A DNA stretch of 32,000 nucleotides from Pyrobaculum calidifontis JCM 11548 (GCF_000015805.1 NC_009073.1:360001-392000), one strand, 5' to 3'. Shown: positions 4,337 to 22,991, numbered from the stretch's first letter. The notes: a model not told the origin generated them from the letters alone. Program-made: numbers and translations.

Positions 4337-5259
4337 TACTCCTCTTCGGCTTCGGAGGTGTGGGCAGGACGCTGGCCCAGCAGATATACCAAAGGACGAG
4401 GCTCAAGATAGTTGCTGTGTTTGACTCAAGCGGCGGAGTCTACAAACGCGGCGGCTTTACAAGTGAGGAGGTGGAGAAGCTCGTGTCCCTCCCCCGTGGG
4501 TCCCTCGTCAAGGCCCCAGTGGGCGAGAAGGTGGACATAGACCACGCACTAGACGAGGCAGAGATTGTCGTGGATGTGAGCCCTCCCAACTACGAGACGG
4601 GGGAACCGGCCTACACGCTCTACAAAAAGGCGCTGCAAAAGGGGAAGGCTGTGGTCACGGCAAATAAGGCCCCACTCGCCCTCCACTTTGACGAACTCAG
4701 AGACGGGGTCTACTACAAGGCCACGGTAATGGCGGGGACTCCCCTCGTCGATCTTCTAAAGGGCCTTGAGCCGCAGCGGGTGGAGAGCTTCATGGGTATA
4801 CTAAACGGGAGCACTAACTACATTTTGACGCGTGTCTATAAGGACGGCGTGTCCTTCGAGGCCGCTTTGGGAGAGGCGCGGACTAAGGGCATACTTGAGC
4901 CAGACCCCAGGCTAGACCTCGAGGGGGTGGACGCCGCGGCAAAGCTGGTAATCGTTGCGAACACCCTAGGTGTCTCTCTCAAGCTGGGCCAAGTGGCCCG
5001 CGAACCCCTAACGCCGATGGGGCCGGTGACAAAATACGTAGCATACCTCGACGTTGGTGCACAGAGGGGAGAGGTAAAGCCTGTGAGACTAGACCCAGCC
5101 CATCCACTGGCAAATGTGGACTATACACTAAACGCGGCGTATATAAAGACTGAGGTCAACGACATCTATCTGGTGGGTAAAGGCGCTGGACGCCTAGAAA
5201 CAAGCCTAGCACTGCTTAACGACATACTAAGCTTCTACAAGACTCTAAGGGGCAAGTGA
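4333..5259 (+). CDS. hom: homoserine dehydrogenase
   Basis: NAD-binding motif FGFGGVGRT, VTANKAPLA, and GILNGSTNYIL, which is characteristic of homoserine dehydrogenases. ATGA overlap with the asd stop. Confidence 0.88.
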   Translation: MILLFGFGGVGRTLAQQIYQRTRLKIVAVFDSSGGVYKRGGFTSEEVEKLVSLPRGSLVKAPVGEKVDIDHALDEAEIVVDVSPPNYETGEPAYTLYKKALQKGKAVVTANKAPLALHFDELRDGVYYKATVMAGTPLVDLLKGLEPQRVESFMGILNGSTNYILTRVYKDGVSFEAALGEARTKGILEPDPRLDLEGVDAAAKLVIVANTLGVSLKLGQVAREPLTPMGPVTKYVAYLDVGAQRGEVKPVRLDPAHPLANVDYTLNAAYIKTEVNDIYLVGKGAGRLETSLALLNDILSFYKTLRGK

Positions 5260-15647: not shown

Positions 15648-15732
15648 TGCGGGGGGTGGGATTTGAACCCACGCAGGCCTACGCCACAGGGACCTAAACC
15701 CTGCCCCTTTGACCTGGCTCGGGCACCCCCGC
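15648..15732 (-). tRNA. tRNA-Leu (anticodon UAG), class II with long variable arm, no encoded CCA, no intron
   Basis: The reverse complement reads GCGGGGGTGCCCGAGCCAGGTCAAAGGGGCAGGGTTTAGGTCCCTGTGGCGTAGGCCTGCGTGGGTTCAAATCCCACCCCCCGCA. The 7-bp acceptor stem is GCGGGGG/CCCCCGC. The anticodon stem is CAGGG/CCCTG with loop TTTAGGT. The T arm is GTGGG-TTCAAAT-CCCAC. An A/T-rich ttaaaatttaaaa lies about 25-35 nt upstream. Confidence 0.9.
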
Positions 15733-15755: not shown

Positions 15756-16457
15756 TTAAATTTTAAGGCGCCATGGGTTACATAGGGGTGTCAGTCCTCT
15801 TCCTCTCACGTTAGCCACTAGCGTTACGCCCAGGGCGCAGGCGGTCTCTACGCCGCTGTTTAGTGGGCCTCTAATGCTTACCATGATAGAGGCCCCGATG
15901 GCCGCGCCCCTTGCCACCAAGTCGGACGAGGCTCTGCCGGTGGTGAAGACCAAGGGCCCCCTCCTGCCCTCCTTAAGCGCCTTGCCCACGAGCTTAAGCA
16001 TGGAACTGTGCCTACTCACGTCATGAACCACTAGCCACCCCTTTTCATCCAAGAGGGCGGAGGTGTGCATGGCCAAGCTCGGCTCGGCAGTGGGCATGGT
16101 GAATTTCCCAAACTCAGCCACGAGCGCCCTCAGCTTCTCCACATCCAGCCGGGCCTCCACGAGCCGGACCTCGCGGCGGCCGCCCTTTACCACGTCGCAG
16201 TCCTCCACTGCCTTAAACGAGGGCGACGCCCGGCGCCTGATTCTGGCGATTATTTTGCGGCCCTCCACTCTCAACTCGCTCACCTCCTCCACAGTGTCTA
16301 TGTACCCATCTGCGTAGAGGAGGCCGAGCGCCAGTTCGTCTAAGTCCTGGGGGCTTGCCACAGCAGTGGCAACTAGCTCGCCGTTTACAAACACTTGGTA
16401 TAGCTCGTCTACGGCTACCTTAATCCCGTTGACCTCCCGCCACATGGCCCACCACAA
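15756..16457 (-). CDS. fdhD: FdhD-like formate dehydrogenase accessory sulfurtransferase
   Basis: VFVNGELVATAVASPQDLDELALGLLYADGYI and HDVSRHSSMLKLVGKAL match the FdhD pattern (L.VNG...ASP.DLEEL..GFL and DVGRHNA.DK). It is the last gene of the FDH operon. The start may be the internal Met at 16445. Confidence 0.75.
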   Translation of the reverse strand: MWWAMWREVNGIKVAVDELYQVFVNGELVATAVASPQDLDELALGLLYADGYIDTVEEVSELRVEGRKIIARIRRRASPSFKAVEDCDVVKGGRREVRLVEARLDVEKLRALVAEFGKFTMPTAEPSLAMHTSALLDEKGWLVVHDVSRHSSMLKLVGKALKEGRRGPLVFTTGRASSDLVARGAAIGASIMVSIRGPLNSGVETACALGVTLVANVRGRGLTPLCNPWRLKI

Positions 16458-17007
16458 TTCTCAAGAGGTATTCCAAGTCCTCCCGGGGCAGGCCCTGGTA
16501 TTCCACGTAGGCGAAGCCGCACCTCCTGCACCTATAGAACACGGCCCCCTCCAGCCCCTCTCTTATATATACGTCGAAGTTTTGACGCCCCTCGGCGCCG
16601 CAGTTGGGGCAACGCCACCACCCCTCGTGTAGCCACGAGAAGCCGCAGACGCACTTGGCGTACCTCTCCCTAGACTCAAAAATCTCCCCGGGCCGGGGCA
16701 CCACGACGAAGAGCCTTGGGGCACTTCCACAGATGGGGCACCTGTCGCCGCTCCACTCGGCGAACCTCTGCGCAAACCTCTTCGCAAGCCTAGACGCCAC
16801 CACCAGCCTTGCCGCGGCCTCATCCCCCACCGCGTCCACAATCTCAGCCATGTTGGCCACTTGGTCCACGAGGGGGGGAGATAGAGAGGAGAGATGGGGC
16901 TCCGGTATTGGCGTTGAAAAAAGGGATCGGATTTCCTCAACCGCCCGCCTCACCTCCTCAACACAGTGGGAGTCCCCCCCGCAGACTATCTCAACCTCTT
17001 TGGACAC
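16420..17007 (-). CDS. fdhE: FdhE-like formate dehydrogenase accessory protein (short form, Cys-rich)
   Basis: Cys pairs CPICGS, CVCGFSW...RCPNCG and CRRCGF are arranged as in FdhE rubredoxin-like motifs. The gene sits between the cytochrome b gene and fdhD. Confidence 0.65.
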   Translation of the reverse strand: MSKEVEIVCGGDSHCVEEVRRAVEEIRSLFSTPIPEPHLSSLSPPLVDQVANMAEIVDAVGDEAAARLVVASRLAKRFAQRFAEWSGDRCPICGSAPRLFVVVPRPGEIFESRERYAKCVCGFSWLHEGWWRCPNCGAEGRQNFDVYIREGLEGAVFYRCRRCGFAYVEYQGLPREDLEYLLRIVVGHVAGGQRD

Positions 17008-17710
17008 GGCTTAAAAACCTCGGCATGTGTTTCTGCACCCACTCAAGCGACACTTTGCCATATCCAAACATAGCCACTAGTAGAGGCCTATTGGAGGGGT
17101 GCAGAGAGGCAAAGAGGTGCAAGAGGACGAATATCAGCGAGAGGTAGAAGCCCAAGTCGTGCATGAGTAGGAGAAGCCTAAAGTCGTTTAACGAGAGGCC
17201 AAGCACGTCTCTATAGACCATTAACACCCCGCTCGCCGAGAGGAGGACAACTCCGATGAATAGGAGTATGGTCATGTAAGCTACAAGGACGTTGTGTCTT
17301 TCCAAGTTCTTTGCCACATCTTCTGGGAGCGGCTTGCCCAAGAGATAGTGCTTAGTAAGGGCTGAGGCCTCTCTAATCTGGTGACTAATGGGCTTCCTCA
17401 ACGCGTCAAAAATCCGCACTCTGTTAAACATCACTAGGTATATGCCATAGACGATGAGGAAGAGGCCCCACAGCATACCGAGAAATCTGTGGCTTGTGCG
17501 GCCTAGCTCAAGGCCCACAGAGGTGGCAGGCAGGCCGACGGCGGCGGCCAGCGGCGCCCCAACGGCGTAGGCCAACCAGTTAAACAGCCCCGGAAAGAGC
17601 AACAATACTCCAGTGATAGCTAACAATGTAAATAATACAAGATTTAAACTGTGAGCTATTTTATAACCTATAGAGGCAATCTCTACTTCTTCATATTTTA
17701 CACTAGACAT
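16991..17710 (-). CDS. fdnI: formate dehydrogenase cytochrome b (gamma) subunit, FdnI-like
   Basis: Four to five TM helices, with His in helices 1 and 2 and an H-x13-H pair (MHDLGFYLSLIFVLLH) in the last helix. I recall the same 14-residue spacing for the heme ligands of E. coli FdnI. Confidence 0.8.
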   Translation of the reverse strand: MSSVKYEEVEIASIGYKIAHSLNLVLFTLLAITGVLLLFPGLFNWLAYAVGAPLAAAVGLPATSVGLELGRTSHRFLGMLWGLFLIVYGIYLVMFNRVRIFDALRKPISHQIREASALTKHYLLGKPLPEDVAKNLERHNVLVAYMTILLFIGVVLLSASGVLMVYRDVLGLSLNDFRLLLLMHDLGFYLSLIFVLLHLFASLHPSNRPLLVAMFGYGKVSLEWVQKHMPRFLSRVQRG

Positions 17711-17730
17711 GTTAAATAAAGTGAGGAGAG

Positions 17731-17740
17731 GTTTAAAAAC
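17731..17740 (-). promoter_or_regulatory. possible internal TATA element upstream of the cytochrome b gene
   Basis: In the 30-nt gap between fdnH and fdnI, the minus strand reads GTTTTTAAAC, centred about 25 nt upstream of ATG 17710. Confidence 0.35.
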
Positions 17741-18568
17741 TTATCTTTCGTGCTTCTTCTCCACTCTAGACTGGCGCCAAGCCGCTAGGCCGAGGATTGT
17801 CAGCCCCAAGGCCGCCGCCGGCGCCAAATAGGTAGCAGCCTGCCTCAGGTACTCCCTTATGGAATTCGACACCACGGTGGAGGCCTTGGGGAAGTGTTGC
17901 TCCACTGCAAAGCTCCTCCTAGACGCCACGAATACCCACCTCACTTGGCCGCCCACGTAGGGGTCTAAGTCGAGGCCGTACACGACCCTCCCCTTGGACT
18001 GCTCCTCTCTCGCCGCCTTTGTTACCTCTTCTATGGGCCCAAAGGTGAAGACGCCGGTGGGGCAGACCTCGACGCAGGCGGGGGCACGGCCGTTTTGAAT
18101 TCTGTCTACGCAGAAGGTGCACTTGTAGTACTTCCCGTCCTGCCCCTTCTTGGGGACGTTGAAGGGACACGCATTTTCACAATAGCCGCATCCGATGCAC
18201 AAGTCCTTGTTTATCACCACTGCTCCCTCTGGCGTAGTCACAATGGCACCTGCGGGACACGCCCTGGCACAAGGAGCGTCGACACAGTGGAGACAGTTGT
18301 AGGGCAACGGCGCTATGTCCACCTGCGAGAAGACCACCTCGCCGGCGGGGGTCTTCAACCCCTTCTGCACAACCCCCTCGTAGAAGAAGACTACCTTCCA
18401 GTCTTGCGCAGTCAGCGACGGCGGCTGGGCAAGCGTGGGGCTGAACTCCGTCTTTGTGGCAGTTAGCCCGTTCCAGTCTTTACACGCCAGCTGGCACGCC
18501 CTACAGCCAATACACTTGTCTAAGTCCACCAATACCGCGTAGCCTTGGCGGGAGGTTGCCGGCGACAT
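17741..18568 (-). CDS. fdnH: formate dehydrogenase iron-sulfur (beta) subunit, FdnH-like, with C-terminal membrane anchor
   Basis: Four ferredoxin-type Cys clusters (CIGCRACQLAC, CLHCVDAPCARACP, CIGCGYCENACP, CTFCVDR...ACVEVCP) and a C-terminal hydrophobic helix, ATYLAPAAALGLTILGLAAW. Confidence 0.9.
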   Translation of the reverse strand: MSPATSRQGYAVLVDLDKCIGCRACQLACKDWNGLTATKTEFSPTLAQPPSLTAQDWKVVFFYEGVVQKGLKTPAGEVVFSQVDIAPLPYNCLHCVDAPCARACPAGAIVTTPEGAVVINKDLCIGCGYCENACPFNVPKKGQDGKYYKCTFCVDRIQNGRAPACVEVCPTGVFTFGPIEEVTKAAREEQSKGRVVYGLDLDPYVGGQVRWVFVASRRSFAVEQHFPKASTVVSNSIREYLRQAATYLAPAAALGLTILGLAAWRQSRVEKKHER

Positions 18569-18570
18569 GG

Positions 18571-21500
18571 CTACACCGACCTAGCCTTTCTTATTGCGCC
18601 AAGCCACGCCTTAGATTCCTGAATCGTTGTAACCACGTCGCCGACGTCAGGCGTGAGGAAGTTGCCCTGCGGCCCAGTGACGTCGCCCATGAAGCTGAAG
18701 CTCCACTGTACGTTTACCACTGGGACAGTCTTGCCGTTCACGTTTAGATACGCCTCGCCATCGGTGACGTAGGCCACCATCTTCAACATCCCCCTCGCAG
18801 TCCAGAGTTCCACGTAGTCGCCGCTCTGGATGCCCAGCTTCTGGGCCAAGGCCCTCGGCACATATACAAACGGCGCAGGGACGAGTTGGGCTAGGTAAGG
18901 CACGTTGCGAGACATGGCTCCCGTGTGCCACGTCTCTGTGAGCCTATTAGACGTCATCGCCACAATAACGGCGTCGGCCACGCCCCACTGCTTCAACAAG
19001 TCCTCCAGCTGCTTCGGCTCAAGCGCGACGCCCACGGGGAAGTCCTTCACTGCGGCCGGCTTGTTAGTCAACACGTCCAAGTTGTAGGGATTTGTCCACG
19101 CGAGTGTGGGGTACTTAAGCGCCATCTCTACCAGGGGGCTCTCCACAGGCTCGGTGTGTATAGGCCACTGGAAGTTGTACCCCTTATACCAGCCGCCCAT
19201 CTCCTCTATAACCTTCAACGTGGCCGTCCTCAAATCGCCGGTCTGCTGGTAGTACTGTTGTAGCAACTGGCGCATTTTCTCGTAGTTAGGCTTAAATTGC
19301 GCCCAGCCCCCGCCGGAGTAGAAGGGCCTCTTTAACGCCGCCTTCATAGACAGCGCCTCTTCGTCCCAGTACACAGCGTCGTTAGCCCAGAGATACCTCA
19401 TGCCGGTCGCGGCGGCGAATTCCTCAAAGCCGAGCACCTTAACCTCCCCCCCGTCCTCTACTACGAATTTCCCAGGTATCACAAGTTGGCCGGTCCTAAT
19501 GAACTCTATGATGTCTAATCCACCGAAGAGGTCGGAGACGCCGCTCAGCCTCCTCTTAAAGCTCCTGGGCGCCCAGAAGTTGTGGCCTGGCACAAAGGCG
19601 GGCCTATACTCGCCCGTATACTCGTCGATAATTTCACCCGTCTCCCCCGTCACAGTCCATTGCTTGCCCGCGGCCGTCACCACGTCGGCCTTGCCCAACA
19701 CCGCCTGAAGCGAGTCGTAGTTGTACATAAAGCGCACGTTCATGGGCCAAGACCAGCCCCAGTCCTTGTACACCTTGAACTCTTGGCTAAATGTGCCATC
19801 GATCTCGCCGGGCTTCCTCAGCCTATTGTTCCTCCGCATTGGGGTAAACTCGTCTCTAACGGGGTCGTATATGCCTTGGTATATGAAGACGGCGTAGTTT
19901 ATCTCCTTGCTTATTATCCGCGGATTAGCCGCGGCCTCTATTTCGGAGATGGGAGCCGCCTCGCCGGAGCCTCCCGAGTAGTCCCACGAGCGGTCTGGCT
20001 TAAGCGGCCTCTCGTAGACGAAGATGAGCTGGCCCCTCTTCCTAAACTTCACGCGCTCGCTCTTGACCCCAGCCGCCTCGCTGGGCAAAACCACGGCGCC
20101 GGCCCTCCTCAGATACTTGTACAACTGGGCCATTATCCAGTAGTCGGGCCTAGACTCGCCCACGGGCTCCACTGCCCTCCAAGTCCACTGAATCACCCTA
20201 TTGCCGTCGGTCCTGGTCCCCTCCTTCTCGGCGAAAGACGCCGCCGGTAGAACGACGTCGGCGAAGTACGCCGTCTCAGTCTCAAATATGTCGCTCACGA
20301 CCAGGAGGTCTAGGCTGGCCAAGCCCGCCATCACCACTTTGGCGTTTGGATTAGACACGGCGGGGTTCTCGCCGAACACAAACGCAGCCCTTATATCGCC
20401 CGCGAGGGCTTTCCTCGGGAACGTGACCTCCGACGCGCCGGTGCCGAAGGGCAAGTCGCACACCACCACGCCGTTTACTGGGTCGTCCTCTGGAACAGTA
20501 CCGCAGAAGACCCCCCACACAAGCTCAAGCCTGCGCCAGCCGTAGAAGTTGAACACTTGCAACACCTTGGTCAAATCTGCCTTGCCCCTGGAGGGTGTGC
20601 TCGTGGCGACTTTGCCCTGCGCCCACTGGGGGATCTCCCAGTTCCAGGCGTCTGGCATCCCCTGCAACTTCCAGTCTTGGTACAGCCTCACGTCAAAGGC
20701 GCTGGAGGGCGGGGAGTGGTAGCCGGGCAAGACGCCTAGCCCTCCTCCTTGCACGTCTGTGACGCCTTGGACATTGCTGTGGCCTCTAAATGGGTGAGTC
20801 CCCCCGCCTGGGTACCCCACGTTGCCCAAGAGGAGTTGCGTAATGGCCGCCGCCCTTATGATGTTGATTGTGGCGTTTGTGTGCTGAGTAAAGCCCATGG
20901 CCCACTGTACTATGCCATGCTTCTTGTGGCCGGTGACTACGCCGCTGTTCTCCACGTATATCTGGGCCACAGTCCTCAACAGCTCCTTCGGCACGCCCGT
21001 TATGGCCGAGGCTGTGTCTACGTCGTATTCCTTTAACATCTCCTTCAAGTCTGCCAAGTCGTCGTTGGTGATATTCCACCGCGCCATTAGGCGCTGGAAC
21101 TCCGGCAGTTGGTCAATGGGCGGGTTTCTCTCAAAGAACGCGTAGTGGAGGATGTAGTTGAAGATGGCGGTGTCTGTGCCAGGCCTAAACGGCACCCATA
21201 TGTCGCTCGCCGCAGCCGTCCTGCTGTACCTTGGGTCAAAGGTTATGAAGATGGTGTCGCGCTCCCTCTTCCCCTTCATAAAGTAGTAGAAGGACAGCGG
21301 GTGGGCCTCCGCGGGGCTTGAGAAGAAGAGCACCACGTCGGCCAAGGCCACGTCCTCTATGGACGCGGTCTCGGCGCCCCAGCCGTAGGTAACGGCGAGA
21401 GAGCTCACAGTGGAAGAGTGGCACTTGCGGTACTGCGAGTCTGTGTTAGAGGTGCCCAAGAAGGCGGCAAGCTTCCTTGAGAGGTAACCCTCCTCGTTCA

Positions 21501-22098
21501 CCAGAATAGAGGAGCCTATTATCATGACAGGGCTCTTGGCGCCCACGTAGTAGAATCCGTCGGACTGCTTAGGCGCCCCCGTGGAGGTGCGCCACGCGTT
21601 TAAAATGCCGGCGAGCTTGCCGGCGATGTATGATAGAGCCTCGTCCCAGCTTGCCCGCCTCCACTGCGGCGGGTACTTCTTCAACACGGCCAAGAGCTCG
21701 TCCCAGGTCTTGGCGGCTAGGATCTCCTCGACGGGCGGCTTAGGCCCAGTCCTAATAAGCGGATACATAAGCCGGCGTGGGTTATTGACGAGCTGGAAGG
21801 CCGCCTTGCCCTTTGGACACAAGGCCCCCCAGTTGATATACGAGTCGGTGGAGCCGGCAGACCAGATAACTCTCTGCCCATCCGTATACATGTCAATGGA
21901 ACACCCCATGGAGCAGTAGGGACATATCGTGGGCATAACCCTGGCTTGCTGAAGCCCGGTCTTGCCCCCCACTTCGCCAAGCGCCCACCTCGTCTTAGCC
22001 GCGGTAAAGCCCTGCTGAGCCGAGGCAGGGAGGCCGAGCGCCAGCGCGGCCAATGCCGATATCTTTATAAACGAGCGCCTAGTGGTCTGCACCGTCAT
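18571..22098 (-). CDS. fdnG: formate dehydrogenase catalytic (alpha) subunit, Mo/W-bis-PGD family, Tat-exported, Cys-type
   Basis: Twin-arginine signal MTVQTTRRSFIKISALAALALGLPASA. N-terminal 4Fe-4S motif CPYCSMGCSIDMY...CPKG. YRKCHSSTVSSLAVTYGWG aligns with the E. coli FdnG ARVUHGPTVASLAPTFGRG motif, with Cys (TGC at 21421-21423) in place of selenocysteine. Co-operonic with fdnH, fdnI, fdhE and fdhD. Confidence 0.9.
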   Translation of the reverse strand: MTVQTTRRSFIKISALAALALGLPASAQQGFTAAKTRWALGEVGGKTGLQQARVMPTICPYCSMGCSIDMYTDGQRVIWSAGSTDSYINWGALCPKGKAAFQLVNNPRRLMYPLIRTGPKPPVEEILAAKTWDELLAVLKKYPPQWRRASWDEALSYIAGKLAGILNAWRTSTGAPKQSDGFYYVGAKSPVMIIGSSILVNEEGYLSRKLAAFLGTSNTDSQYRKCHSSTVSSLAVTYGWGAETASIEDVALADVVLFFSSPAEAHPLSFYYFMKGKRERDTIFITFDPRYSRTAAASDIWVPFRPGTDTAIFNYILHYAFFERNPPIDQLPEFQRLMARWNITNDDLADLKEMLKEYDVDTASAITGVPKELLRTVAQIYVENSGVVTGHKKHGIVQWAMGFTQHTNATINIIRAAAITQLLLGNVGYPGGGTHPFRGHSNVQGVTDVQGGGLGVLPGYHSPPSSAFDVRLYQDWKLQGMPDAWNWEIPQWAQGKVATSTPSRGKADLTKVLQVFNFYGWRRLELVWGVFCGTVPEDDPVNGVVVCDLPFGTGASEVTFPRKALAGDIRAAFVFGENPAVSNPNAKVVMAGLASLDLLVVSDIFETETAYFADVVLPAASFAEKEGTRTDGNRVIQWTWRAVEPVGESRPDYWIMAQLYKYLRRAGAVVLPSEAAGVKSERVKFRKRGQLIFVYERPLKPDRSWDYSGGSGEAAPISEIEAAANPRIISKEINYAVFIYQGIYDPVRDEFTPMRRNNRLRKPGEIDGTFSQEFKVYKDWGWSWPMNVRFMYNYDSLQAVLGKADVVTAAGKQWTVTGETGEIIDEYTGEYRPAFVPGHNFWAPRSFKRRLSGVSDLFGGLDIIEFIRTGQLVIPGKFVVEDGGEVKVLGFEEFAAATGMRYLWANDAVYWDEEALSMKAALKRPFYSGGGWAQFKPNYEKMRQLLQQYYQQTGDLRTATLKVIEEMGGWYKGYNFQWPIHTEPVESPLVEMALKYPTLAWTNPYNLDVLTNKPAAVKDFPVGVALEPKQLEDLLKQWGVADAVIVAMTSNRLTETWHTGAMSRNVPYLAQLVPAPFVYVPRALAQKLGIQSGDYVELWTARGMLKMVAYVTDGEAYLNVNGKTVPVVNVQWSFSFMGDVTGPQGNFLTPDVGDVVTTIQESKAWLGAIRKARSV

Positions 22099-22298
22099 AG
22101 CTGCGCCGCGCCCCAGTTCTTATCCCTCTTCCCACCCACCTTCTTAGCCGTCATGCAGGTCAAGTCCTCCTCCATGGCGATAAGGCTATACAGCCCACCG
22201 TAGCTCTCAGCCACAAGCGAAAGCTCCCGCTCAAAAACCTCCAAAAACTCCCTACGCCGCTTCTCTACGCTCTCATACACAGCCTTGAAATCTACCAT
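22095..22298 (-). CDS. small uncharacterised protein (67 aa), first gene of the FDH operon
   Basis: ATG 22298 lies about 23 nt downstream of a TATA-like element. The stop overlaps the fdnG start in an ATGA arrangement (22095-22098). Predicted helical and charged (MVDFKAVYESVEKRRREFLEVFERELSLVAESYGGLYSLIAMEEDL...). No family recognised. Confidence 0.55.
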   Translation of the reverse strand: MVDFKAVYESVEKRRREFLEVFERELSLVAESYGGLYSLIAMEEDLTCMTAKKVGGKRDKNWGAAQL

Positions 22299-22317: not shown

Positions 22318-22325
22318 TTTTAAAT
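22318..22325 (-). promoter_or_regulatory. TATA-like element of the FDH operon
   Basis: The minus strand reads CCATTTAAAAGG around 22316-22327, centred about 23 nt upstream of ATG 22298. It directly abuts the stop (22329-22331) of the upstream regulator ORF. Confidence 0.5.
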
Positions 22326-22328
22326 GGC

Positions 22329-22923
22329 CTATTCGGGACTTTCTTGAATAATCTTTTTAAACTGGATCAGAGGGCACTGTTGAAGAACGGGCCCTCCACA
22401 GATTTCACAGAAGCCCAAAAACCAAGCACGGCCTTCCTCGTCTACAAAAACGACCCCCTTGTGCCCACCGAAGGCGACCATTGGTGCAAGAGATGCGAAG
22501 ATAGACGCCACAAGCTCAGCCAAGGCGGGGTCTAACCCAATCACAGACTTCAAGGTAATTGGCCTCCCCAAGAGGAGCATGGCCGCGTGAACTAAGTCGT
22601 CTTTCAACGCGTCTAGGCTGGGGACCAGCGCCGTTAAAAACTTGCACAGCGCCCCCCCCCCGCCCCACGACGCCCAAGCCGCTTAAATATCTGCCAAAGG
22701 CTGGGGCAACGACGTCGCATCCAAACAGCTCCACGCCCTTCACAAAACCCTTCAAAGTAGGCCTAACGACCCCATCCTCCTCAGCCACGTAAAACTCTCT
22801 CCCAAGCCGTTCCAACTCGTAGTAGACAGTTGAGGTGGGCAGGGGAAGCCCCTTGGCGAGCTGGTACTTAGACACGGGAAACTTCTCCACAACAGCCCTC
22901 AACACCGCCCACCTCCTATCCAC
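22329..22923 (-). pseudogene. winged-helix (wHTH) transcription regulator split into two frames at a G10 tract
   Basis: ORF 22923-22516 has a wHTH-like N-terminus (VSKYQLAKGLPLPTSTVYYELERLGREFYVAEEDGVVRPT) and then an out-of-frame-looking tail. ORF 22607-22329 has a frame that stays open up to the homopolymer (ALCKFLTALVPSLDALKDDLVHAAMLLLGRP...). The frames meet at 22652-22661. A G9 tract would give one protein of about 198 aa. Confidence 0.65.
22652..22661. repeat. C10 (+ strand) / G10 (coding strand) mononucleotide tract
   Basis: Direct count in ...cacagcg cccccccccc g cccc acgac... The tract is followed by g and a further C4. Confidence 0.95.
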
Positions 22924-22924
22924 A

Positions 22925-22936
22925 ATGATTAATCAT
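22925..22936. promoter_or_regulatory. perfect 12-bp palindrome ATGATTAATCAT in the divergent promoter region; candidate operator
   Basis: Self-complementary 12-mer that begins 2 nt upstream of the regulator GTG start (22923), in the 68-bp gap to the DUF59 gene. A TATA-like tttataa lies at 22973-22979. Confidence 0.45.
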
Positions 22937-22991
22937 TATGGATATTTAACATTGGCCCACGCGGCGTCCAAGTTTATAAGTCCATGTCGAC

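What the first reader, a model, noticed from the sequence alone, without database searches (positions are those of the whole stretch)
22329..22923. A G10 homopolymer splits a winged-helix regulator that sits directly upstream of the formate dehydrogenase operon
Seen in sequence: two overlapping minus-strand ORFs (22923-22516 and 22607-22329) lie in frames offset by one. The first 90 aa of the upstream ORF form a wHTH-like domain, and its tail (GRGGGAVQVFNGAGPQPRRVERRLSS...) looks like out-of-frame translation. The downstream frame stays open back to the tract (ALCKFLTALVPSLDALKDDLVH...). The two frames meet exactly at C10/G10 (22652-22661). A tract of 9 (or 12) would give one continuous protein of about 198 aa. 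The ORF's stop abuts the TATA element of the FDH operon. Established: long mononucleotide runs are slippage hot spots, and as I recall, instability of G/C mononucleotide tracts and a mutator-like state were reported for Pyrobaculum aerophilum. Inference: this could be an ON/OFF (phase-variation-like) or transcriptional-slippage-dependent switch on a regulator of formate respiration. Alternatively it is plain gene decay or a homopolymer sequencing error.
Basis: partly seen in the sequence, partly recalled or inferred. Interest (0 to 1): 0.7.

Follow-up and report, generated by a model that had tools for sequence, protein, structure and literature searches.

The report
One regulator gene, miscounted-or-slipping G run
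The two overlapping ORFs are one 197-residue DNA-binding regulator gene next to a formate dehydrogenase operon. It is broken in this reference sequence by a single extra G in a young, strain-specific run of G's that reads as G9 (gene intact) in most other sequencing of the same strain, so it is an ordinary slippage or miscount site and not a conserved genetic switch.

Summary
A G10 run (22652-22661, minus strand) separates a 135-aa ORF from a 92-aa ORF, and G9 gives one 197-aa protein.

The window is Pyrobaculum calidifontis JCM 11548 (Pcal_0397).

- **One ORF is the norm.** Every relative found has a single 178-213-aa ORF. This includes P. aerophilum PAE2665, a Thermoproteus tenax protein and metagenomic relatives at 81-96% identity.
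- **Position is conserved.** In the relatives whose flanks I could read, the gene lies directly upstream of an FDH-N-like operon.
- **Protein.** It has a TrmB/MarR-like winged helix and a Cys/His-rich C-terminal domain with no known family.
- **The G run is not conserved.** The closest relatives have GGGGGGAGG, and more distant ones GGAGAGAGG. One A-to-G change (Glu90Gly) made G9, and the reference carries one more G.
- **No decay.** The lineage-specific changes are four synonymous plus that one substitution.
- **Both lengths appear in the same strain.** In mock-community data, DNA of this strain assembles as G9 in at least six runs (Illumina, DNBSEQ) and as G10 in two (one Illumina, one Ion S5). 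A third run of unknown origin also gives G10. Everything else is 100% identical.

The most likely reading is an accidental, unstable slippage site, or simply a miscounted reference. A conserved, evolved phase-variation device is not supported. Raw reads would decide between these.

The parts
22329..22923 (-). One regulator gene. It encodes 197 aa with G9 and is frameshifted in the window by G10. It has an N-terminal winged helix (residues about 1-67) and a C-terminal Cys/His-rich domain.
   Evidence: One search gives the G9 translation. The AF2 model built on 12 family members has pLDDT 89.1 and pTM 0.83 and forms one body across the tract.
22652..22661 (-). G10 homopolymer, the site of the +1 frameshift. 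It covers codons R88-G89-G90-A91 in a loop between helices.
   Evidence: Relatives have GGGGGGAGG, GGAGAGAGG or TGAGAGAGG at this position.
22516..22923 (-). Upstream ORF as it stands in the window (135 aa; annotated as Pcal_0397 and WP_193322820.1). Only residues 1-89 are authentic; the last 46 are out-of-frame.
22329..22651 (-). Authentic C-terminal reading frame (residues 91-197). It carries conserved C93, H154, C172, C175 and C183.
22917..22944 (.). 28-nt inverted repeat (14-nt arms, 13 of 14 complementary; core ATGATTAATCAT). It lies between the regulator's TATA-like box and its GTG start, which it overlaps. It is a candidate operator.
   Evidence: It is identical in L001, L002 and L016 and nearly so in L003 and L004. 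The function is inferred, not tested.
22943..22949 (-). TATA-like box TTAAATA about 23 nt upstream of the GTG start, which implies a leaderless transcript.
   Evidence: Read directly from the sequence. It is conserved in relatives.
22318..22324 (-). TATA box TTTAAAA of the FDH operon. It starts 4 nt after the regulator's stop codon and lies about 23 nt before the ATG at 22298.
22095..22298 (-). Conserved small ORF (67 aa; motif EEDxTCxTAKKxxGKRDK). Its stop overlaps the start of fdhA.
   Evidence: Present in P. aerophilum, T. tenax and MAG L020. No family match.
18571..22098 (-). FdhA-like molybdopterin catalytic subunit (1175 aa) with a twin-arginine signal and a Cys-His in RKCHSS.
   Evidence: The best PDB matches are periplasmic formate dehydrogenases, E=1e-78. 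The best NCBIfam match is FDH-N alpha, below the curated cut-off.
15756..18568 (-). Remaining genes of the operon: FdhB-like (17741-18568), FdhC-like cytochrome b (16991-17710), FdhE-like (16420-17007) and FdhD (15756-16457).

Best explanation
**What is there.** This is one gene. It encodes a 197-residue transcription factor found only in Thermoproteaceae. The N-terminal part is a TrmB/MarR-like winged helix. The C-terminal domain carries conserved Cys/His residues (C69, C93, H154, C172, C175, C183) and may bind a metal or an iron-sulfur cluster. The gene is kept directly upstream of an FDH-N-type formate dehydrogenase operon and presumably controls it.

**How the tract arose.** In the P. calidifontis JCM 11548 lineage a single A-to-G transition (Glu90 to Gly, in a variable loop) joined G6 and G2 into an uninterrupted G9. 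The reference sequence carries one more G (G10). That shifts the frame after residue 89 and leaves a winged helix with a nonsense tail.

**What the G10 state is.** The intact G9 allele is present in DNA of the same strain. Most likely both lengths are real. The new run would then be an accidental slippage hot spot in an organism without MutS/MutL, and culture lineages or sub-populations drift between full-length (G9) and truncated (G10) regulator. It is not a conserved, selected switch.

**Shown.** One gene; the indel lies inside the tract; the tract is young and lineage-specific; the sequence shows no decay; G9 and G10 both occur in assemblies of the same strain.

**Inferred.** That both alleles exist in cells; that the protein regulates the FDH operon; that the Cys/His residues bind a cofactor.
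For: **One gene**
- Intact 197-aa homologues at 81-96% identity.
- An exhaustive HMMER search of 1.84 billion representatives found only 11 relatives. Apart from the window's own frameshifted fragment (P0006) and two other short records (149 and 68 aa, of unknown completeness), they are single ORFs of 178-213 aa.
- The AF2 model built from 12 family members folds as one body, pLDDT 89.1 and pTM 0.83.

**Indel inside the tract.** The DNA alignment shows one extra base against all relatives, and it lies inside the G run.

**Tract is lineage-specific.** L001-L003 and L016 have GGGGGGAGG, L005 has GGAGAGAGG and L004 has TGAGAGAGG. PAE2665, the T. tenax gene and the two MAG genes (L020, L021) have no long run.

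**No decay.** The window-specific changes are 4 synonymous substitutions plus E90G, and pN/pS is about 0.2.

**Both lengths in the same strain**
- G10 in the window, L006 (SRR253090), L007 (ERR1254308) and L008 (ERR9765778, Ion S5).
- G9 in L009/L010 (ERR1254310), L011 (ERR1254284), L012 (ERR1254311), L013 (ERR1254295) and L014 (ERR9765743, DNBSEQ-G400), plus further contigs that were not shown.
- All are otherwise 100% identical to the window over 0.9-5.9 kb.

**These runs are mock communities**
- PRJEB52977 was built from archived gDNA of the Shakya et al. study and contains P. calidifontis JCM 11548 at about 2.5% (PMC9652401).
[quoted passage not shown] Its strain list was not retrieved, so the presence of JCM 11548 there is inferred from the 100% identity of its contigs to the window.
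- The same MOCK2 DNA gives G9 on DNBSEQ and G10 on Ion S5.

**Link to the FDH operon.** The order regulator, small ORF, FdhA/B/C/E(/D) is conserved in P. aerophilum, T. tenax and a Thermoproteaceae MAG, although the regulators share only 28-42% identity.

Against: - No raw reads were available. G9 versus G10 is known only as the majority path chosen by assemblers.
- Long G runs are hard for every platform. L015 (SRR4028144) shows a garbled G13 followed by G-substitution errors. Ion S5 is notoriously poor at homopolymers. One library out of five in the same Illumina study disagrees with the rest.
- If the mock DNA were a mixture, one would expect similar ratios in all libraries made from it. 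The split could therefore equally reflect library or platform bias.
- Regulation of the FDH operon rests only on conserved adjacency.
- The window protein by itself does not reach any Pfam threshold.
Confidence: 0.5

Rival explanations
1. Reference miscount. The strain carries only G9, so the gene is simply intact. The G10 in the 2007 Sanger reference and in a few later assemblies would then be a homopolymer over-call.
For: - G9 is the call in at least six short-read runs, including DNBSEQ. That platform has the lowest indel rate in PMC9652401 (0.003%) at roughly 100x expected coverage.
- The gene shows no other sign of damage.
- One of the G10 calls is Ion S5.
- L015 shows that the site generates artefacts.
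Against: - G10 appears in four independent data sets: the Sanger reference, SRR253090, ERR1254308 on a 42-kb contig, and Ion S5.
- A majority over-call in a well-covered Illumina library is not expected if the template were pure G9.
Confidence: 0.27
2. Fixed recent pseudogene. The strain carries only G10, the regulator is dead, and the G9 assemblies are technical under-calls caused by PCR or cluster-amplification contraction.
For: - The finished Sanger reference and three later assemblies read G10.
- Contraction by one base is the commonest PCR slippage product at long runs (general knowledge).
- A natural relative (L005) has lost the whole FDH operon together with the 3' end of the regulator, so the locus is dispensable in nature.
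Against: - This would need a majority error in at least six libraries on two different chemistries.
- No second lesion and no excess of non-synonymous change.
Confidence: 0.1
3. Evolved switch. The tract would be a selected contingency locus (phase variation), or a programmed transcriptional or ribosomal slippage site that sets the dose of full-length regulator and hence formate respiration.
For: - A G9/G10 run inside a regulator, in an organism lacking MutS/MutL.
- Two lengths seen in DNA of one strain.
- The run is as long as an RNA-DNA hybrid, which in principle allows slippage without mismatch (general knowledge).
Against: - The tract is absent from every relative, including ones about 97% identical in DNA. 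It was created by a single substitution.
- Only two lengths are seen; no G8 or G11 products are on record in the protein clusters.
- The target is a cytoplasmic regulator, not a surface or restriction-modification gene.
- No expression data exist.
Confidence: 0.06
4. Two genuine, separately made proteins: a 135-aa winged-helix protein and a 92-aa C-terminal protein started at the TTG at 22607.
For: Both ORFs exist mechanically. The public annotation calls the first one a gene.
Against: - No relative is split in this way, apart from L005, which is truncated by a large deletion.
- The 46-aa tail of ORF1 has no homologue.
- The downstream ORF is not in the protein collection as a called product.
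- The model folds as one body.
Confidence: 0.02

Closest known systems
Simple-sequence-repeat contingency loci (poly-G phase variation, for example in Campylobacter jejuni, Neisseria and Haemophilus); comparison from general knowledge
   Same: A poly-G run of 9-10 lies inside a coding sequence. A change of one base toggles between a full-length and a truncated product. The host lacks MutS/MutL. Two lengths are seen in DNA of one strain.
   Different: The run is not maintained in relatives and arose by one substitution. The gene is a cytoplasmic regulator, not a surface or restriction-modification gene. No switching rate, expression effect or selection has been shown. The host is an archaeon.
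Length instability of G:C mononucleotide runs reported for Pyrobaculum aerophilum (Fitz-Gibbon et al. 2002, PNAS 99:984). Cited from memory because the paper was not readable here; the absence of MutS/MutL is confirmed by PMC4471258.
   Same: Same genus, same kind of tract, and the same proposed cause: slippage that is not corrected by mismatch repair.
   Different: That report concerns clone-to-clone variation during one genome project. Here the variation is between assemblies of mock-community libraries and may be technical.
Homopolymer miscounts in reference genomes that create artificial split genes
   Same: A single-base difference lies in the longest run of the region. The gene is otherwise perfect. 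Other sequencing of the same strain gives the in-frame length.
   Different: The frameshifted length recurs in four independent data sets, which a one-off error would not do.
TrmB/MarR-type winged-helix regulators of archaea
   Same: The N-terminal 60-110 residues have the winged-helix topology. Foldseek hits are all regulators of this kind. Pfam TrmB matches 10 of 12 family members.
   Different: The window protein is below the Pfam threshold. There is no TrmB sugar-binding domain. The C-terminal Cys/His-rich domain matches nothing in Pfam, NCBIfam or the PDB.
Programmed transcriptional slippage or ribosomal frameshifting (for example Thermus dnaX, IS elements, Sulfolobus fucA1); comparison from general knowledge
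   Same: Two overlapping frames are joined at a slippery homopolymer.
   Different: Orthologues have neither a slippery site nor two frames, so there is no conservation of a recoding signal.

Membership tests
SSR contingency locus (phase-variable gene) | Uninterrupted repeat tract of at least about 8 units inside the ORF or promoter, with length changes that toggle expression | tested here: met
   G10 at 22652-22661. G9 gives 197 aa and G10 gives a truncated product.
SSR contingency locus (phase-variable gene) | Tract length varies within a strain or population | tested here: inconclusive
   G9 in at least six runs and G10 in three, besides the reference. All are otherwise identical. These are assembler majority calls from mock-community libraries, so a technical origin is not excluded.
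SSR contingency locus (phase-variable gene) | Tract maintained across strains or related species, showing selection for mutability | tested here: not met
   Relatives have GGGGGGAGG, GGAGAGAGG or TGAGAGAGG. PAE2665 and the T. tenax gene have no long run.
SSR contingency locus (phase-variable gene) | ON and OFF states differ in phenotype or expression | not testable with these tools
   Needs clones of each length and transcript or phenotype measurements.
Programmed recoding site (transcriptional slippage or ribosomal frameshift) | Two-frame architecture and slippery site conserved in orthologues | tested here: not met
   None of the relatives found shows the two-frame arrangement, and those whose DNA was read lack an uninterrupted run.
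Decaying pseudogene | Several disabling lesions and relaxed selection | tested here: not met
   One 1-nt indel only. Lineage-specific changes are 4 synonymous and 1 non-synonymous, and pN/pS is about 0.2.
TrmB-family winged-helix regulator (Pfam PF01978) | N-terminal domain scores above the Pfam gathering threshold | tested here: not met
   The window protein scores 12.5 bits against a cut-off of 25.6, E=0.13. At family level 10 of 12 members hit TrmB, best E=1.3e-6.
TrmB-family winged-helix regulator (Pfam PF01978) | Winged helix-turn-helix fold | tested here: met
   The AF2 model (pLDDT 89) has the topology H-H-H-beta hairpin. The Foldseek PDB hits over these residues are winged-helix regulators, with rmsd 1.3-2.9 A over 55-69 residues, although E-values are 0.007 or weaker.
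TrmB-family winged-helix regulator (Pfam PF01978) | C-terminal sugar-binding effector domain of TrmB proper | tested here: not met
   The C-terminal half has no family or PDB match.
FDH-N-type respiratory formate dehydrogenase operon | Tat-exported molybdopterin alpha subunit with Sec/Cys-His, plus an iron-sulfur beta subunit, a cytochrome b gamma subunit, FdhE and FdhD | tested here: inconclusive
   For all five proteins the best matches are the FDH families, and RRSFIK and RKCHSS are present. Every NCBIfam score is below the curated cut-off, and formate as the substrate is untested.

The most novel reading that the evidence does not exclude
The G9/G10 run is a genuinely hypermutable site that switches a formate-respiration regulator between full-length and sensor-less forms within populations of a hyperthermophilic archaeon. 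That would be a nascent contingency locus caught just after its birth by a single point mutation. It would be a rare documented case of repeat-mediated phase variation in Archaea.
Probability: 0.1. Interest if true: 0.65.

Novelty: new member of a known kind. Interest (0 to 1): 0.3.

Why it matters
**Annotation.** Pcal_0397 / WP_193322820.1 is the N-terminal fragment of a 197-aa regulator and should be annotated as frameshifted, or corrected.

**Biology.**
- The work defines a small, uncharacterised family of regulators (winged helix plus a Cys/His-rich domain). The family is tied to the formate dehydrogenase operon across Pyrobaculum and Thermoproteus, which gives a concrete candidate for how these archaea control formate respiration.
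- If the G9/G10 mixture is real, it shows how one substitution can create an unstable on/off site in an organism without mismatch repair.

**Testability.** The question can be answered with public data. Several mock-community data sets containing this strain's DNA already exist on six platforms.

Tried and rejected
- **AF2 on the four close homologues.** pLDDT was 46, which is unusable. It was replaced by a run on a 12-member alignment.
- **Single-protein family searches.** Pfam and NCBIfam searches with the regulator alone gave nothing above threshold.
- **First genome-contig scan.** It found no relative, not even the source genome. The 12-member alignment was too diverse to make patterns. 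A 5-member alignment found two MAG loci.
- **Metagenome scan.** It gave one locus.
- **Literature.**
  - The Fitz-Gibbon 2002 paper could not be read, and searches for a citing statement failed. The report of run instability in P. aerophilum therefore rests on memory.
  - The supplement of PMC4787001 does not map ERR run numbers to library types.
  - SRR253090 and SRR19070096 could not be traced to a paper.
- **Promoter and terminator scan.** The bacterial sigma-70/terminator scan is irrelevant for an archaeon and found nothing.
- **Rfam.** It found only a tRNA at 15648-15732.
- **Rejected idea.** The idea that the run is statistically exceptional is rejected: it is no rarer than in dinucleotide-preserving shuffles.

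Full report
**1.

On the minus strand there is a run of ten G at 22652-22661. It is the longest homopolymer in the window; the next longest is 7. It lies in the overlap of a 135-aa ORF (22923-22516) and a 92-aa ORF (22607-22329) that are one frame apart.

- Deleting one G gives a continuous 197-aa ORF.
- G12 gives 198 aa.
- G8 and G11 give early stops.

A run of nine or more G is not in itself unusual for this composition. In one search, 45 of 100 dinucleotide-preserving shuffles did as well. The meaningful fact is that the run coincides with the only indel against intact orthologues.

**2. Source and annotation**

The frameshifted product is identical to hypothetical protein Pcal_0397 (129 aa) and WP_193322820.1 (135 aa) of Pyrobaculum calidifontis JCM 11548.

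**3. It is one gene**

- A search of 5.8 billion clustered proteins returned four intact 197-aa proteins at 81-96% identity to the G9 translation.
- An exhaustive HMMER search of 1.84 billion representatives with their alignment found only 11 relatives. Apart from the window's own fragment (P0006) and two other short records (149 and 68 aa, of unknown completeness), they are single ORFs of 178-213 aa. They include a Thermoproteus tenax protein (190 aa). P. aerophilum PAE2665 (178 aa) is a member of one of the clusters found.
- Residues 1-89 of the window's upstream ORF align with these proteins. Its 46-residue tail aligns with nothing.
- AlphaFold2 on a 12-member alignment gives one compact body across the junction, with pLDDT 89.1 and pTM 0.83. 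The earlier run on four sequences was useless, pLDDT 46.
- The tract codons (R88-G89-E/G90-A91) fall in the loop and helix cap between helices 69-82 and 89-98. The family alignment is variable in length at this point.

**4. What the protein is**

- *N-terminal domain.* The model has a helix-helix-helix-beta-hairpin N-terminus. Nearly all Foldseek hits in the PDB are winged-helix regulators (MarR, IclR, IdeR, ROK, CggR) that cover only this part, and the E-values are weak, 0.007 or worse.
- *Pfam.* TrmB matches 10 of 12 family members, best E=1.3e-6. The window protein alone is below threshold.
- *C-terminal half.* It has no match in Pfam, NCBIfam or the PDB. It carries conserved C93, H154, C172, C175 and C183, together with C69. 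I infer a site for a metal or an iron-sulfur cluster, but I did not test this.

**5. Context**

The downstream genes are, in order: a conserved 67-aa ORF; a 1175-aa Tat-signal molybdopterin subunit; an iron-sulfur subunit; a cytochrome b; an FdhE-like protein; and FdhD.

- The best solved relatives of the large subunit are periplasmic formate dehydrogenases, E=1e-78.
- For every one of these proteins except the 67-aa ORF, which matches no family, the best NCBIfam match is the corresponding FDH family. All scores are below the curated cut-offs.
- The same arrangement follows the regulator in P. aerophilum, T. tenax and an uncultured Thermoproteaceae MAG. The regulators share only 28-42% identity, whereas FdhA is about 75% identical. 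This conserved adjacency is the basis for calling the protein the operon's regulator. It is an inference.
- Both promoters are typical leaderless archaeal ones and are conserved in relatives.
- A 28-nt inverted repeat at 22917-22944 lies between the regulator's own TATA-like box and its start codon, which it overlaps.

**6. The tract is young and not conserved**

Aligned DNA shows:

| Sequences | Sequence at the tract position |
|---|---|
| Closest relatives L001, L002, L003, L016 (89-97% DNA identity) | GGGGGGAGG |
| L005 | GGAGAGAGG |
| L004 | TGAGAGAGG |

The P. aerophilum, T. tenax and MAG genes have no long run.

The P. calidifontis run therefore arose by one A-to-G transition (Glu90Gly) that made G9. 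The window has one additional G. The other four changes specific to the window's gene are all synonymous, and pN/pS against relatives is about 0.2. There is no sign of prolonged decay.

**7. The same strain reads as G9 or G10**

Exact-sequence look-ups show both products in independent assemblies.

| Length | Locus and run |
|---|---|
| G10 | L006 (SRR253090), L007 (ERR1254308), L008 (ERR9765778) |
| G9 | L009/L010 (ERR1254310), L011 (ERR1254284), L012 (ERR1254311), L013 (ERR1254295), L014 (ERR9765743), plus further contigs not shown |

- Apart from the one G, every one of these contigs is 100% identical to the window over 0.9-5.9 kb.
- These runs are not natural samples.
  - PRJEB12287 is the mock community of the Illumina error-profile study (PMC4787001). 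Its strain list was not retrieved, so the presence of this strain is inferred from the identity of the contigs.
  - PRJEB52977 is a mock built from archived gDNA of the Shakya et al. study. It contains P. calidifontis JCM 11548 at about 2.5% (PMC9652401).
- The same MOCK2 DNA gives G9 on DNBSEQ-G400, the platform with the lowest indel rate, and G10 on Ion S5, which is poor at homopolymers.
- One further contig, L015 (SRR4028144), shows a garbled G13 with G-substitution errors after the run. This is a technical artefact.
- No G8 or G11 products are on record.

**8. Interpretation**

- A pure G10 template would need majority under-calls in at least six libraries on two chemistries.
- A pure G9 template would need over-calls in the Sanger reference, in SRR253090 and in a well-covered Illumina library.
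- A real mixture, or stock-to-stock difference, at an unstable run explains all the data with the fewest assumptions. It also fits an organism without MutS/MutL (the P. aerophilum run-instability report is cited from memory).

My estimates are:

| Explanation | Probability |
|---|---|
| Real G9/G10 polymorphism at an accidental hot spot | about 0.5 |
| Simple reference miscount | about 0.27 |
| Fixed pseudogene | about 0.1 |
| Evolved phase-variation or recoding device (disfavoured because the run is absent from every relative) | about 0.06 |
| Two genuine proteins | about 0.02 |

**9. Verdict**

The attractive switch reading is not supported as an evolved feature. The case is an ordinary kind of event, a homopolymer frameshift or miscount, in a previously undescribed but narrow regulator family. 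It has one useful twist: public mock-community reads can settle whether the run is truly unstable.

Noticed in passing
L005 5001-5672 (JGI 3300005798), compared with window 22501 and 15905: A natural relative carries a deletion of about 6.6 kb. It joins codon about 141 of the regulator in frame to the last 45 or so codons of FdhD, at a short microhomology. The whole FDH operon is removed, leaving a 187-aa chimeric ORF (P0005).
   Followed up: partly
window 22917-22944: A 28-nt inverted repeat (TATCCATAATGATT/AATCATTGTGGATA on the gene strand; 13 of 14 positions complementary) lies between the regulator's TATA-like box and its GTG start, which it overlaps. It is identical in three relatives and nearly so in two more. 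It is a candidate auto-operator.
   Followed up: partly
window 22095-22298 (-); L017 9242-9433; L019 8683-8883; L020 about 5097-5216: A conserved 63-67-aa ORF with the motif EEDxTCxTAKKxxGKRDK always lies directly before fdhA, and its stop overlaps the fdhA start. It matches no known family.
   Followed up: partly
regulator family alignment A3 (window protein residues 69, 93, 154, 172, 175, 183): Five cysteines and one histidine are conserved across a family that shares only 26-42% identity. This suggests a site for a metal or an iron-sulfur cluster in a domain with no known relatives.
   Followed up: partly
L015 848-923 (Logan SRR4028144): At a contig end, the tract is extended to G13 and followed by C-to-G and T-to-G errors. 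This shows how the site degrades short-read assemblies.
   Followed up: yes
window 15648-15732 (-): A tRNA gene lies directly downstream of fdhD. The matched sequence at the distal end of the L005 deletion runs up to it.
   Followed up: no
Genome-contig collection: The first scan with patterns that are present in the window did not return the P. calidifontis genome itself. The source genome seems to be absent or masked in that collection.
   Followed up: no
window 22319-22361: Two TATA-like TTTAAA(A) boxes in inverted orientation (16-nt arms, 75% complementary) flank the regulator's stop codon just upstream of the FDH promoter.
   Followed up: no
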